A DNA stretch of 64,000 nucleotides from Pocillopora damicornis (taxonomy: Eukaryota): contig NW_020845812.1 of the NCBI RefSeq assembly GCF_003704095.1, positions 372,001 to 436,000 on the forward strand. Direction: 5' to 3'. The position numbers and the translations under genes are program-made. Below the pieces are notes generated by a model that did not search any database, was not told the DNA's origin, and saw only the letters and a program-made list of their open reading frames with translations. Shown one piece after another: positions 29,241-46,589 of the stretch. How positions within the stretch are numbered: position 1 is the stretch's first letter; each line of letters starts with the position of its first letter.

Positions 29241-30194
29241 ATGGCATTTTCAGACAATTGCGCAGAGGATGACATTCCGCGTTTCGTCTCATGGACAACT
29301 GTTGTCATTAGCAGCTTACTATGCGTCCTTACTGTACCAGTGAACATGCTAACATGCATTGCTATCATTAAGGATCCTTTCAAAGACTTGCGGACGCCAT
29401 TTAATTATTTTATAATTAACTTAGCTGTTGCTGATTTGGTTATCGGATTTGTAACCTTACCTAGCTTCATCATCTATCACTCCCGGGAGGCCATTGAGGG
29501 AAAAAAGTTGAGCTGGATCTGGGTATTTCACTTGACGTATTTCATGTCACTTACAGCCTCGCTTCTGAGCTTGTCGGCGTTGGCTGTGGACCGCTGCCGC
29601 ACAGTTACGTCAACCTCATGTAGAAGGCTCAAGCCAATGCATGGATATCTAACTTCTGCCCTAATATGGTGCCTGTCGTTGATTCTCCCGCTTATTTATC
29701 TTTTGATAGAAGCATATTTATTTATATTTGTATTTAGTAACACGTCAGCCATAGTAGTGTTCGCTATTTTACTTGCCTCGCACAAGTCTACTTCAAAAAC
29801 AATGCAGAGCCATGTAAAAAACTGGGATACAATAAAACACAGCGACTTCAAGCGGAGAGCCTTAGCGAGAGAGAGGAAGGTCACCAGATCTTTTATGACG
29901 ATTTTGACTGTTTTCTGTTCCACGGTGTTCCCATCATGCATTGCTGCAAACATCATCAGTTTCTGCACCACGTGCTCCTGTGACATCACGAACACATTGC
30001 GTGACGTTTATTTCCTCCTGCCCATGATTATTGCAGCCACGAATCAGTTACTTTACTCAATGAGGATGCGGAATTTCCGCAGAGCGTACGTGTACTTGTT
30101 TCAGCATACCGTATTCAGCCAAAAAATCCGGTCACGAAAGGAATGTTACAGGATGGACAAAATTGCAAGAGGAAATAAGGAGACTGATCAATGA
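29241..30194 (+). CDS. Class A (rhodopsin-like) orphan GPCR, paralogue 1, 317 aa
   Basis: Seven hydrophobic segments; TM1 PVN, TM2 LAVAD, TM3 DRC, TM4 W, ECL3 CTTCSC, TM7 NQLLY, helix 8 NFRRA. Confidence 0.92.
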   Translation: MAFSDNCAEDDIPRFVSWTTVVISSLLCVLTVPVNMLTCIAIIKDPFKDLRTPFNYFIINLAVADLVIGFVTLPSFIIYHSREAIEGKKLSWIWVFHLTYFMSLTASLLSLSALAVDRCRTVTSTSCRRLKPMHGYLTSALIWCLSLILPLIYLLIEAYLFIFVFSNTSAIVVFAILLASHKSTSKTMQSHVKNWDTIKHSDFKRRALARERKVTRSFMTILTVFCSTVFPSCIAANIISFCTTCSCDITNTLRDVYFLLPMIIAATNQLLYSMRMRNFRRAYVYLFQHTVFSQKIRSRKECYRMDKIARGNKETDQ

Positions 30195-30415
30195 GATAAT
30201 GTTGATGAAGCCAGTAGCATAACAGGGATGTTAAAATTTCAAATTAAGAATATGGTACAGTTACGCACCTATAAAAACTAGAGTTTATAGAATAAAAGAA
30301 CGATATGTCAATGTAATAAAGACGAAAAATAAGGGAGACTAATGATCGCACGTAGAATGATTTTGAAATATTCTCTGAACTTTGGGCCGGATAATAGTTT
30401 GAGTATAGAAGCTCT

Positions 30416-30538
30416 GGATCAATATCAGTATCTGGGCAACTGCCCACCTACCCCTCCCCTAACCCAACATTAACCCTAACTTGTTATCGGGTTAGGGGAG
30501 GGGTAGATGGGCAGTTGCCCAGATACTGATATTGATCC
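30416..30538. mobile_element. Hairpin MITE (GGATCAATATCAGTATCTGGGCAACTGCCCA TIR), about 220 bp downstream of the GPCR1 stop
   Basis: Near-perfect inverted repeat over about 50 bp; second copy at 47996-48132. Confidence 0.9.
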
Positions 30539-31691
30539 AAAACTCCTTTGGCACCTAGGAAATACACTTTGGCGGTGTTAAGAATTGCAAATTAGAGCTT
30601 CTTAGGGGTCTTCTTGGTGTAAGGCGAGTAGCTATTCTAAAGTGCATATCATTAAACAAGACATGTCCCCAGTATCGCCACCATAGCAAATCCTGATTGA
30701 AAAATTGTGTTTACTGGCTTTTAAAAAGGAAATCGTTTTTCGGTTTCTTTGGATTGTAAAAGGCTTGATATTCGTAACTAGTTCGAACTTCAGCTATTCA
30801 AATGAGATAAAGTCCATATTTAAACTTCAAACAATTTGATCGCAGGTCAGACACAGAACAAAAAAAAATTTATTATCGTCTCAGCTCGATCGACATTTTC
30901 ACTCTCCAGTAATCAAATTCATTAGTGCCTAATGAAATACAATCAACGCTGCCAGAAATATTTGTTATGGCAACAGTCAAATCGTTCACAATACACTGAG
31001 AATCTATTTTTGCAAATAACTCTTTGGTTCAAAGTTAGAATTCGTATATTGTTGACAATTTAATGAAACACATTTAAATTCACCCGTAGCCGTCCAATTT
31101 CCCTTTGGTTCCGAAATGTAAATATGATTCTAAGGTCACATGCCACCTAGAAGTGACAGAAATTATTTTTTCAAATCTAGCAAGTAAATTTTTTAGTTTG
31201 ATTTTGTAAAATATCTTTTAATTCAATTCTAAACCTTCAAATTTCGCCCTCCCTCTTAGAAAAAAAGGAATTAAAAATTAGCTATTCTGAAGCCATGGGG
31301 TTATTCCTTCAAAATTCAATAATAATTCTAGTTTTTATTACTTCTATCGGCGGGAGGAATATTGTTTGTTTTTAAGCCTTTGTCAAATGTTTGCTTTATT
31401 GTGACATTTTCCTCGACATGAAAATTCATGTAAATTCAGTTCAAAGGCTTATTCAGTGAATATGCACAACCAGACTTTGTTAACCCAAGGTGCCTAAAAA
31501 TTTGCAGAAAATTCTCGGCTCTGGAAGCTTCCATTCTTCTCGTCACCGACACCTGACGTAGAAATGTCATGAACGTCTGCGCACTGTTTGTGAGAACAAC
31601 TTAGTTTGTATCATATTGGTATAATCATTGCCATTTTGGTCGGCAGATATTGATAGTCTGTCTAAGACAGATACAAATCCAAAGAAGCATC

Positions 31692-44652: not shown

Positions 44653-44912
44653 AAAGGGGGTAAGTTTCTAAAAAAACTGTGGTGCTGCGTCTTTTAGGGT
44701 TTCTACAAGATAACTTGGTTTTATATCAACTGAGTTTATAGGGTGAGTTGGCTACCTTAGAGAGGATCTAAGGCTTACCTTTCCAGAGATTAGCCCTCCA
44801 TCACGGCGAGTCTGATTCGCTCTGACGAAGGACTAATGCTCGAAATATCTGCTCTATAACCCGCCTGCAGTAGCCAATTCACTTTATCAATTCAGTTGAT
44901 AAAACCAAATTA
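44653..44912. mobile_element. Decayed palindromic Penelope-like repeat with a degenerate + strand hammerhead motif (44819-44852)
   Basis: Starts AAAGGGGGTAAGTTTCTAAAAAAACTGTGGTGCTGCGT; contains GCTCTGACGAAGGACTAATGCTCGAAATATC; ends TTATCAATTCAGTTGATAAAACCAAATTA. Confidence 0.65.
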
Positions 44913-45506
44913 GTGCCTTCTTTGAGCCAGTGTTTACATTAAAAGGAAAAAAAATGGAAGACAGTATACAGCCAACCTTTTTCCCACGCGAAGGAATATT
45001 TTTTTAGCAAACCCTGTACTGGTTCTCCTTGGGTCTTTGAAAATAGATTCGTTGGTGATCAATATTGTTTAGTATTTAGAAATCATAAAATCAACAAATG
45101 TAATTACTTGAACCTATTTGCTGGCTTTGACCTCTTGAACCTCACAATATAGATACTCCTGAATAGGTCTCTTGAATAAGCTTGCATATTTTGTTTTTCC
45201 AATGTGCTGTGAGTTAGGTCATGTGATAATACTCAAGAGAGCAGTTTCTTTCAAATTTCGTACTATTCACCTTCTTATGTATGTATGATTCATGAAAGAC
45301 CTTCATTGGGAAAACGAGAGGTTTCAGAAAATTAAGAATGATGACCTTCATTCAACCACTGTTTTTTTTTATTAATTTGTCGTTGGGATCAAGTGCTTGA
45401 GAATAATATGGTCAACAATATGATTTATTTATGATACCCTATTTTCATGTAAAATGTCAAACTAATGCTGTATTTTTATTGAAGGTAGAAGAACAAGAGA
45501 CATTTC

Positions 45507-46589
45507 ATGATGGTTTTCATGATCAATTTATGTGACGACGTGCACGCACCATTTGCTACATCAGTGACGACTGCATGTCTCTCCTTACTGCTTTGTTGTA
45601 TTACAGTTCCAGGAAACATTCTGATCTGCATTGCCATTTTGAAAGATCCTTATCAGGAATTATCTAACTCATTCAACTATTTTGTCCTCCAACTGGCATT
45701 TAGTGACGTCATTGTCGGGATTTTCACCGAACCAGCATTCGTCGTTTGGCATATTCGGGAAGCCCTTGGCCACGGTGTCTCAGGAACGATATGGATTGTT
45801 CACTTAACGTTTTTCATCTCTTGTACAGCTTCACTTCTTAGTCTGACTGCTCTAACTCTTGACAGACATTTAACAATCGTGACTATCAGAAGGAAATTTT
45901 CCACTCGTTCAGTGGTTCTTATCTGTGCGTTAATATGGTTTTTATCTCTGACGATACCTCTCGTTTATTTCGCTACTGGGTTTTACTTGTTTGCGTTTAT
46001 ATTCGCAAATACCGCAGTTATCACCACATTTGTGATTGTCACATTTTCTTACTGTCAGATTCATTACAAGCTAAGAGTTCAGGTGTCTCGTTGGCGTTCA
46101 TTTTGTCAAGACCGCATCGTGTCAAAAGCCATGGCCATGGAAAAACAACTTACGCGGTCATTTAGCTTGATTTTAATGTGTTTCATTTTGTGTTTAATAC
46201 CATCGTGTGTCATGATATACATGATAAACCTTTGCAATGATTGTGACTGTATACTTATCCACTGGCTACGGGATTTACAGTTCCTTCTGACATTAGTCAA
46301 CTGCTCGATGAATCAGTTTCTTTATGCTTGGAGGATGCCCAACTTTCGAAAGGCAGTAGCTGCTATCGTTTGTGGTAGGTCAAGTGCACCTCAAAGTGAC
46401 ATACCTTCAACGCCTCTTACACCAACACTATCGAGCAATCGGAGTAGCAGAAATGAAACGCTGACAGAGGAGTTTACGTCATCAATAAGGTACAAGAACA
46501 CCTCGTATACTAGAGACGATATCGATGATGCAGCCAATGGAAACCTTGTGGAACAGCTTGAAAATTATAGGTGCATAACCTATGTATAG
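45507..46589 (+). CDS. Class A orphan GPCR, paralogue 5, 360 aa, Ser/Thr-rich C-tail
   Basis: NLCDDV, PGN, LAFSD, DRH, CNDCDC, NQFLYAWR. Confidence 0.93.
   Translation: MMVFMINLCDDVHAPFATSVTTACLSLLLCCITVPGNILICIAILKDPYQELSNSFNYFVLQLAFSDVIVGIFTEPAFVVWHIREALGHGVSGTIWIVHLTFFISCTASLLSLTALTLDRHLTIVTIRRKFSTRSVVLICALIWFLSLTIPLVYFATGFYLFAFIFANTAVITTFVIVTFSYCQIHYKLRVQVSRWRSFCQDRIVSKAMAMEKQLTRSFSLILMCFILCLIPSCVMIYMINLCNDCDCILIHWLRDLQFLLTLVNCSMNQFLYAWRMPNFRKAVAAIVCGRSSAPQSDIPSTPLTPTLSSNRSSRNETLTEEFTSSIRYKNTSYTRDDIDDAANGNLVEQLENYRCITYV

What the first reader, a model, noticed from the sequence alone, without database searches (positions are those of the whole stretch)
29241..46589. Five-member orphan GPCR family with NQxLY in place of NPxxY and no TM6 toggle Trp
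Seen: all five paralogues end TM7 with NQ(L/F)LY. TM6 has no Trp in the CWxP position (TVFP, CNVS, CSFP, CLLP, CLIP), and paralogue 2 also lacks the Pro. The DRY position varies (DRC, ERY, DRY, DRY, DRH). Established: P7.50 and W6.48 are among the most conserved class A activation switches. Inference: the same P-to-Q change kept in five diverged, intact ORFs marks a subfamily with a non-standard activation mechanism rather than decay.
Basis: partly seen in the sequence, partly recalled or inferred. Interest (0 to 1): 0.7.

Follow-up and report, generated by a model that had tools for sequence, protein, structure and literature searches.

The report
Coral receptor clade with altered switches
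Five real, conserved coral cell-surface receptors belong to an old group, shared with sea anemones, that has changed three usually fixed activation parts at once; a few human receptors show similar changes, so this is a new variant rather than a new kind of receptor.

Summary
They are not decaying. Orthologues in other corals give dN/dS 0.035-0.23 (42 pairs), synteny is kept, and paralogue 5 is spliced in 4 of 4 RNA runs. NQ marks one well-supported clade (99 of 221 rows: Q 92, H 7, P 0) with members in stony corals and two anemones. Two corrections: loss of Trp6.48 is older and family-wide (Trp in 1 of 218; usually Tyr), and P7.50 was lost separately in at least two other branches. Two additions: the clade lost any aromatic residue at 6.48 (1 of 99, against 98 of 122 outside) and two residues of intracellular loop 2, which removes the Pro-hydrophobic G-protein contact in most members. 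The sodium pocket, R3.50, E6.30, F6.44 and Y7.53 are kept, so these are most likely G-protein-coupled orphans with a retuned relay and a Gi/o or arrestin lean (inferred). Human precedents exist: OXGR1 (CFLP, NLLLY) activates typically, GPR55 (DVxxY) atypically. A non-standard mechanism is plausible but untested.

The parts
29241..30194 (+). Paralogue 1 (W1), 317 aa. The most divergent copy: DRC, H5.58, I7.45, V1.49, TVFP, NQLLY. Its coral orthologues mostly read NHLLY; its sister on the tree is a Nematostella gene.
   Evidence: RNA cover low and partial
31692..32645 (+). Paralogue 2 (W2), 317 aa. ERY, CNVS (N6.48, S6.50), NQFLY. Loss of P6.50 is shared by its orthologous group (S6.50 in 25 of 99 clade rows).
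36250..37185 (-). Paralogue 3 (W3), 311 aa. DRY, CSFP, NQFLY. This copy stops 10 codons earlier than the common 321-aa form, in the tail after helix 8.
39492..40550 (-). Paralogue 4 (W4), 352 aa. DRY, CLLP, NQFLY. Splice-acceptor-like site 11 nt upstream of the ATG; RNA contigs of two studies leave the genome at 40559 and run on with other letters.
45507..46589 (+). Paralogue 5 (W5), 360 aa. DRH, CLIP, NQFLY. Head-to-head with paralogue 4.
44181..45484 (+). 1304-nt GT..AG intron in the 5' untranslated region of paralogue 5
   Evidence: joint seen in 4 of 4 RNA runs from 3 studies; ends read from the window
30045..30047 (+). Q7.50 codon (CAG) of paralogue 1
   Evidence: coordinate computed from residue 269
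32499..32501 (+). Q7.50 codon (CAG) of paralogue 2
   Evidence: residue 270
36376..36378 (-). Q7.50 codon (CAG) of paralogue 3
   Evidence: residue 270
39738..39740 (-). Q7.50 codon (CAG) of paralogue 4
   Evidence: residue 271
46314..46316 (+). Q7.50 codon (CAG) of paralogue 5
   Evidence: residue 270
34756..35762 (+). Two-exon homeobox gene inside the cluster (exons about 34756-35071 and 35497-35762; 193 aa), convergent with paralogue 3. Not a receptor, but part of the conserved block.
   Evidence: RNA contigs end at 35071 and resume at 35499

Best explanation
Shown: five functional, single-coding-exon class A GPCR paralogues of a pocilloporid coral, members of an old clade (stony corals plus sea anemones) inside a larger cnidarian orphan family. 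The whole family has an open-topped pocket: a very short ECL2, no C3.25, no P5.50, an N-terminal Cys with a CxxCxC third loop, and conserved polar pocket residues (H2.65, E2.68, H3.29, H7.32, R7.35, D7.36) but no D3.32. On the branch to this clade three switch elements changed: P7.50 to Q, aromatic 6.48 to small or aliphatic, and a two-residue deletion in ICL2. Inferred mechanism: a polar ligand that is not a classical amine (small acid, nucleotide-like molecule or peptide end, perhaps with a metal ion) binds the TM2/3/7 polar cluster and acts on F6.44 and the sodium pocket without an aromatic toggle. The R3.50-E6.30 lock opens, TM6 moves out, and Y7.53 repacks as usual on a TM7 bend held by packing and the Gln side chain instead of a proline. 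The shortened, non-helical ICL2 weakens Gs/Gq coupling and leaves Gi/o and arrestin as the likely outputs. It works like OXGR1: non-consensus motifs on an otherwise standard relay.
For: Clade: IQ-TREE 100/97 on 56 rows with columns 7.49-7.53 removed; mixture model 97 on 28 rows; FastTree 99 on 221 rows with 7.46-7.53, ICL2 and 2.61 removed. Selection: NG86 dN/dS 0.035-0.226 in 42 of 42 orthologue pairs; 7.50 changes once on 8.7 substitutions per site of tree, against a mean of 6.0 for 237 TM sites. Relay kept in 27 non-redundant NQ rows: N1.50, D2.50, S3.39, R3.50, E6.30, N7.49, Y7.53 and F8.50 in 27 of 27, N7.45 in 26, F6.44 in 25; these are positions of the common activation pathway (PMC6954041). 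ICL2 span 25-26 residues in 97 of 99 clade rows against 28 or more in 122 of 122 outside; Pro at 34.50 in 8 of 99 against 95 of 122. The AlphaFold model of an NP relative has an ICL2 helix and that of paralogue 4 has none. [quoted passage not shown] OXGR1 precedent.
Against: No ligand or signalling data. The three changes sit on one branch, so their joint occurrence is a single event and cannot show co-evolution; the NF branch lost P7.50 but kept the ICL2 proline in 5 of 5. Tyr stands at the 34.51 position by count in 44 of 99 clade rows and may replace the lost contact. Y5.58, the usual partner of Y7.53, is kept in only 55 of 99, which fits a less standard relay. The TM7 secondary-structure string is the same in the NQ and NP models, so the bend was not tested. 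GPR55 shows that loss of P7.50 can go with an atypical mechanism.
Confidence: 0.5

Rival explanations
1. GPR55-like atypical activation: without P7.50 and an aromatic toggle, TM7 rotates and helix 8 forms or swings to admit the G protein, with little outward TM6 movement.
For: GPR55 (DVxxYY) does this, and its authors tie it to the non-proline 7.50 (PMC13695653). The TM7 end is more conserved in the clade than outside (Y7.53 98 of 99 against 65 of 122) while TM6 switches are freer (6.48 non-aromatic in 98 of 99; P6.50 to Ser or Thr in 26 of 99; Y5.58 lost in 44 of 99).
Against: D7.49 and Y7.54 of the GPR55 motif are absent (N7.49 27 of 27, A7.54 25 of 27). The model shows an ordinary helix 8 and is closest to A2A structures (Z 26.4, rmsd 2.5, 272 aligned), though prediction leans to the common fold. 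E6.30 is invariant. OXGR1 shows that loss of P7.50 does not require this mechanism.
Confidence: 0.2
2. Arrestin-biased or non-signalling receptors (scavenger, decoy or partner subunit) that keep the fold and pocket but have given up G-protein coupling.
For: Loss of the ICL2 Pro-hydrophobic motif and its helix; 4 of the 5 window copies have no large hydrophobic residue at the 34.51 position by count; Ser/Thr-rich tails (median 10 Ser/Thr in 52 residues); mutating 34.51 fully biases 5-HT2A to arrestin (as cited in PMC13727656). Paralogue 1 also lacks Y5.58 and N7.45.
Against: R3.50 is invariant and Y7.53 and F8.50 are kept; NP relatives have similar tails (median 8 Ser/Thr in 36.5 residues); the TM5-ICL3-TM6 span is held at 31 residues in 25 of 27, as expected of a constrained partner surface.
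Confidence: 0.15
3. Q7.50 is a tolerated accident: a one-base change fixed in the ancestor and then locked in by local packing, with signalling no different from the NP sisters.
For: Pro to Gln needs one base change. P7.50 was also lost in an NF branch (5 rows) and an NA branch (4 rows) of the family, and an unrelated, probably broken GPCR fragment also reads NQFLY (L053, L054). Q gives way to H in 7 of 99.
Against: Q7.50 is among the 49 of 237 TM sites with at most one change in the clade; the ICL2 deletion and the 6.48 change on the same branch touch known coupling elements.
Confidence: 0.13
4. Decaying duplicates or pseudogenes.
For: One orthologue of paralogue 1 is split over two frames in one metagenome contig (L045); RNA cover of paralogues 1 and 2 is low and partial; this copy of paralogue 3 has an early stop in its tail.
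Against: dN/dS far below 1 for all five groups, spliced RNA, conserved synteny, and anemone members.
Confidence: 0.02

Closest known systems
OXGR1/GPR99 (human)
   Same: Lacks both W6.48 (CFLP) and P7.50 (NLLLY) and still couples to a G protein with typical TM5-6 outward and TM7 inward movement (PMC12714840, passages).
   Different: Unrelated lineage; Leu not Gln at 7.50; keeps an aromatic 6.48 and the PIF motif, whereas this clade has neither an aromatic 6.48 nor P5.50.
GPR55, GPR35, GPR18 (human DV/DAxxYY receptors)
   Same: Non-proline 7.50; GPR18 also has F6.48 (PMC6539512; PMC13695653).
   Different: They have D7.49 and Y7.54; this clade has N7.49 and A7.54. The TM7/H8 switch shown for GPR55 is untested here.
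Aminergic and adenosine receptors (D1, D2, M3, H2, A2A)
   Same: Best sequence and fold matches among solved structures; P2.59; CxxC in ECL3 as in M3. Databases name these proteins after them.
   Different: About 25% identity; no D3.32, P5.50, C3.25, W6.48 or P7.50; W4.50-to-5.58 span 39 residues against 50 in D2. The database names are best-hit labels and disagree with each other.
Melanocortin, S1P and cannabinoid (MEC) receptors
   Same: No P5.50 (PMC3081337 table); short ECL2 without the C3.25 disulfide and N-terminal/ECL3 cysteines as in melanocortin receptors (that anatomy is recalled).
   Different: MEC receptors lack the TM2 proline, while this family has P2.59 in 95-100%; MEC receptors are reported to appear in chordates and do not rank in the top 60 sequence matches. 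Probably convergent.
Cnidarian-specific monoamine-receptor-related GPCR expansion (Goulty et al. 2023, PMC10244343)
   Same: Cnidarian orphan receptors near the aminergic/adenosine group with no known function (passages).
   Different: Whether this family lies in that clade could not be checked: the trees are in an outside repository and the readable supplements hold neither the motif nor the accessions.

Membership tests
Class A (rhodopsin-like) GPCR | Pfam 7tm_1 above the gathering score | tested here: met
   5 of 5, 67-92 bits against 30.5
Class A (rhodopsin-like) GPCR | Seven-helix bundle with helix 8 | tested here: met
   paralogue 4 model pLDDT 85.9; A2A Z 26.4, rmsd 2.5, 272 aligned
Class A (rhodopsin-like) GPCR | Anchors N1.50, D2.50, R3.50, W4.50 | tested here: met
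   5 of 5 window copies, 27 of 27 NQ rows
Class A (rhodopsin-like) GPCR | Consensus P5.50, W6.48, P7.50 (common, not obligatory) | tested here: not met
   none in 5 of 5; human class A members also lack one or more
Aminergic receptors | D3.32 amine counter-ion (PMC3081337) | tested here: not met
   Tyr 88, Phe 10, His 1 of 99 clade rows
Aminergic receptors | P5.50, and the C3.25-ECL2 disulfide (the latter recalled) | tested here: not met
   no Pro at 5.50; Cys anywhere in 3.21-3.29 in 1 of 218
Adenosine receptors | P2.59 together with P5.50 (PMC3081337 table) | tested here: not met
   P2.59 present, P5.50 absent
Adenosine receptors | Grouping with bilaterian adenosine receptors on a tree | not tested
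MEC (melanocortin, S1P, cannabinoid) | No proline in TM5 | tested here: met
   feature from PMC3081337
MEC (melanocortin, S1P, cannabinoid) | No proline in TM2 | tested here: not met
   P2.59 in 100% of 27 NQ and 95% of 110 NP rows
GPR55/GPR35/GPR18 type | Non-proline 7.50 | tested here: met
   Q 92, H 7 of 99
GPR55/GPR35/GPR18 type | D7.49 and Y7.54 | tested here: not met
   N7.49 27 of 27; A7.54 25 of 27
GPR55/GPR35/GPR18 type | TM7/helix 8 activation switch | not testable with these tools
   needs paired inactive and active structures
Cnidarian neuropeptide GPCR clades (Thiel et al. 2024) | Present among the sequences of the published neuropeptide-receptor trees | tested here: inconclusive
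   clade and family motifs 0 hits in 31 files, control motif 26 hits in the raw tree file; three files were cut and two could not be read

The most novel reading that the evidence does not exclude
An ancient coral-and-anemone clade of class A receptors that activates without an aromatic TM6 toggle, a TM7 proline or an ICL2 helix: it uses a TM7/helix 8 switch or signals mainly through arrestin, having reached this state independently of GPR55/35/18. Its 35-45% identical NP sister receptors would give a natural before-and-after pair for asking what P7.50 and the ICL2 motif do, and its His/Glu/Asp/Arg pocket may read an unknown coral signal.
Probability: 0.3. Interest if true: 0.7.

Novelty: new variant of a known kind. 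Interest (0 to 1): 0.42.

Why it matters
P7.50, the 6.48 toggle and the ICL2 Pro-hydrophobic motif are usually studied one mutation at a time in human receptors. Here all three changed on one branch and were kept across stony corals and anemones, beside close relatives that retain them, and P7.50 was lost two more times in the same family. That makes the family a natural test set for which class A switches are dispensable. It also shows that database names such as adenosine, dopamine or octopamine receptor are wrong for these proteins, since D3.32 is absent. The interest is limited because human receptors lacking these motifs are already solved and no ligand or physiology is known.

Tried and rejected
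Own-genome search: no genome is held, so family size in this genome is unknown; a further clade member is named from Pocillopora verrucosa (P0448). S7.46-to-Cys as a partner change of Q7.50 looked strong (22 of 27; 56 of 62) but fell to 49 of 99 with wider sampling: rejected. 'ICL2 proline lost in all members' (0 of 62) was corrected to 8 of 99, all in the paralogue-1 group. Co-loss of P7.50 and the ICL2 proline across branches: the NF branch keeps the proline, and in the NA branch the proline was lost earlier: not shown. Melanocortin-group membership was rejected on P2.59 and sequence ranking. The ESM Atlas returned only cnidarian 7tm_1 clusters with mixed automatic names. Expression of paralogue 3 cannot be separated from the convergent homeobox transcript, because one unstranded contig spans both. 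Low cover of paralogues 1 and 2 in contigs is no evidence about their level. Literature: a search for NQxxY, NQFLY or Q7.50 gave 2 irrelevant papers; searches listed no paper on this clade (most subscription papers are not in the library). Earlier scan findings: none.
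Full report
OBSERVATION. The five ORFs, their coordinates and all quoted motifs are in the window. Each passes Pfam 7tm_1. Alignment to the D2 receptor fixes NQFLY at 7.49-7.53 and CLLP at 6.47-6.50. The Gln codon is CAG in all five, one base from a Pro codon. No further copy lies in the window. The host is a pocilloporid coral: paralogue 4 differs by one residue from a protein named from Pocillopora verrucosa. No genome is held.

THE WIDER FAMILY. A single-sequence search gave 121 relatives, 120 listed; a profile search of representatives gave 198 at E<=1e-30, 150 listed. 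Named hits are all cnidarian: Montipora, Oculina, Acropora, Stylophora, Orbicella, Desmophyllum, Actinostola, Nematostella and the jellyfish Rhopilema; most hits are unnamed, so the range is a lower bound. Of 271 rows I kept 218 covering at least 90% of the core and dropped 53 fragments. In these, 7.50 is Pro 144, Gln 62, Phe 5, Ala 5, Ser 1, Leu 1, and Trp6.48 occurs once. The missing Trp therefore predates the Gln change; non-NQ members mostly have Tyr (109 of 156). The family also lacks C3.25 (a Cys in 3.21-3.29 in 1 of 218), has a very short ECL2 (W4.50 to 5.58 spans 39 residues in 204 of 218, against 50 in D2 as aligned), a CxxCxC third loop (188 of 218) and an N-terminal Cys (211 of 218). 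Conserved polar pocket residues are E2.68, H3.29, H7.32, R7.35 and D7.36 and H2.65; D3.32 is absent.

THE NQ CLADE. With the trait columns removed, NQ sequences form one group in four trees: 27 of 27 at SH 99 among 149 rows; 23 rows at 100/97 among 56 (bootstrap not fully settled); 12 rows at 97 among 28 under a mixture model; and 99 rows at 99 among 221 with 7.46-7.53, ICL2 and 2.61 also removed (one two-domain record, P0317, left out; 69 rows came from an NQ-trained profile and so enrich the clade). Inside, 7.50 is Gln 92, His 7, Pro 0; outside, Gln 0 of 122. The roots are distant family members or one distant receptor, not bilaterian outgroups. Nematostella has three members (P0121, P0304, P0378), one sister to paralogue 1 and one near paralogues 4 and 5, so the clade had already duplicated before anemones and stony corals split. 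P7.50 was lost separately in an NF branch (5 rows) and an NA branch (4 rows; a fifth Ala row is misaligned).

NOT DECAY. A metagenome scan gave 54 loci, with orthologues of all five paralogues. I used 17 full-length ORFs and left out duplicates, fragments and other paralogues. All 42 within-group pairs give NG86 dN/dS 0.035-0.226; YN00 gives 0.064-0.349 in 41, with one failure. Window-to-orthologue dS is near saturation (1.1-4.0), but pairs with dS under 0.5 agree (0.057-0.226). Position 7.50 changes once in 23 clade tips against a mean of 6.0 over 237 TM sites; 49 sites have at most one change. Synteny holds: TMTC-region DNA upstream of paralogue 1 (L039), the homeobox gene beside paralogue 2 (L010, partly L011), and the Sox gene beside paralogue 5 (L002-L004). 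In four RNA runs from three studies, out of 23 runs listed, paralogue 5 shows a spliced GT..AG 5' intron in all four; contigs of two studies leave the genome at 40559, two bases short of a predicted acceptor boundary of paralogue 4; paralogues 1 and 2 have low partial cover; and the stretch 30604-31254 has none. Contigs carry no strand or level. Against: one orthologue of paralogue 1 is split over two frames (L045), and this copy of paralogue 3 stops 10 codons early in its tail.

WHAT ELSE CHANGED. First, 6.48 is aromatic in 1 of 99 clade rows (Asn 29, Ser 18, Leu 16, Val 15, Ala 15) against Tyr or Phe in 98 of 122 outside. Second, ICL2 is two residues shorter (25-26 in 97 of 99; at least 28 in 122 of 122), and the 34.50 proline remains in 8 of 99 against 95 of 122. 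AlphaFold gives an ICL2 helix for NP relative P0054 (residues 125-131) and none for paralogue 4, from the same 147 sequences. Third, F2.61 is clade-typical (94 of 99). P6.50 is Ser in 25 rows, the paralogue 2 group, so that loss is also conserved. Y5.58 is kept in 55 of 99. An apparent S7.46C partner change did not survive wider sampling (49 of 99). Kept are N1.50, D2.50, S3.39, R3.50, E6.30, N7.49, Y7.53 and F8.50 (27 of 27), N7.45 (26) and F6.44 (25).

MECHANISM. Shown: real, selected, partly transcribed receptors with an intact sodium pocket, ionic-lock pair and Y7.53/helix 8, and changed 6.48, 7.50 and ICL2. [quoted passage not shown] Inferred: a polar ligand other than a classical amine enters an open pocket and acts through F6.44 and the sodium pocket without an aromatic toggle, TM6 opens, and output leans to Gi/o or arrestin (0.5). 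Rivals are a GPR55-like TM7/H8 switch (0.2), arrestin-only or decoy function (0.15), a tolerated accident (0.13) and decay (0.02). A bend can outlive its proline: PMC4636318 argues this for TM2 of the TSH receptor (passages), and a GPR18 model for TM7 (PMC6539512, passages). My models could not test it.

COMPARISON. By sequence and fold the nearest solved proteins are D1, D2, M3, H2 and A2A receptors at about 25% identity, but the aminergic, adenosine and MEC signatures each fail (PMC3081337, passages). Human OXGR1 has CFLP and NLLLY with typical activation (PMC12714840, passages). GPR55 has DVxxYY and an atypical TM7/H8 switch, which its authors suggest for GPR35 and GPR18 too (PMC13695653, abstract and passages). 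Loss of these motifs is thus a known kind of variation with both outcomes on record. PMC10244343 describes a large cnidarian-specific orphan clade near monoamine receptors (passages; 3 of 4 supplements searched without a hit), and this family may lie in it. It does not appear in the readable neuropeptide-receptor files of PMC11087051 (passages; supplements; the full FASTA supplement was unreadable and may bear on this). PMC11430673 (one passage), 10.1101/2025.04.18.649542 (passages) and PMC9897584 (passages) added nothing specific. Nine library searches listed no description of an NQxxY clade. Ballesteros-Weinstein labels were counted from anchor residues and may be off by one in outer helix halves; the eh1, Not and Sox subgroup labels and the melanocortin anatomy are recalled.

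VERDICT. Observation confirmed; 'subfamily, not decay' supported; 'non-standard activation' plausible, with precedent, and untested. New variant of a known kind; interest 0.42.

Noticed in passing
window 34756-35762 (+); L010 7284-7484: Two-exon homeobox gene inside the receptor cluster with an eh1-like motif in exon 1 and a Pfam homeodomain in exon 2; it resembles Not/Noto (recalled). Its 3' transcript overlaps that of paralogue 3 in one RNA contig, and the arrangement is kept in another coral.
   Followed up: partly
window 53239-54450 (-); L002-L004: Single-exon Sox HMG-box gene (SoxE/F-like, recalled), linked to paralogue 5 in other corals, with a conserved non-coding stretch at about 50964-51364 between them.
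   Followed up: partly
L053 8-379 and L054 8-379: A distant GPCR fragment (about 28% identity) reads NQFLY next to an NPLLY paralogue: an independent Pro-to-Gln change, in a copy that looks frameshifted upstream.
   Followed up: partly
P0142-P0144, P0160, P0214, L041 (NF branch); P0172, P0180, P0182, P0191 (NA branch): Two more branches of the family lost P7.50; the NF branch often has long third intracellular loops, and a large branch has Cys in place of Y7.53 (43 of 122 rows outside the clade).
   Followed up: partly
P0122, P0065, P0366, P0448; L018, L022-L031 except L024: A subgroup of the NQ clade absent from this window has NRY in place of DRY, a change often linked to constitutive activity (recalled).
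   Followed up: no
window 40551-44180: Paralogues 4 and 5 are head-to-head and RNA contigs cover much of 42232-44177, which suggests long 5' exons or a shared two-way promoter.
   Followed up: no
window 28170-28375, about 30400-30460, 32650-32750, 44640-44920: Short dispersed repeats that draw very high RNA contig depth; probably small mobile elements.
   Followed up: no
window 6681-8312 (+), 20607-21368 (-), 63425-63865 (+): A single-exon RING/NHL (TRIM-like) gene, an exon of a TMTC mannosyltransferase, and the start of a deoxyribose-phosphate aldolase-like gene (last name recalled; no Pfam hit).
   Followed up: no
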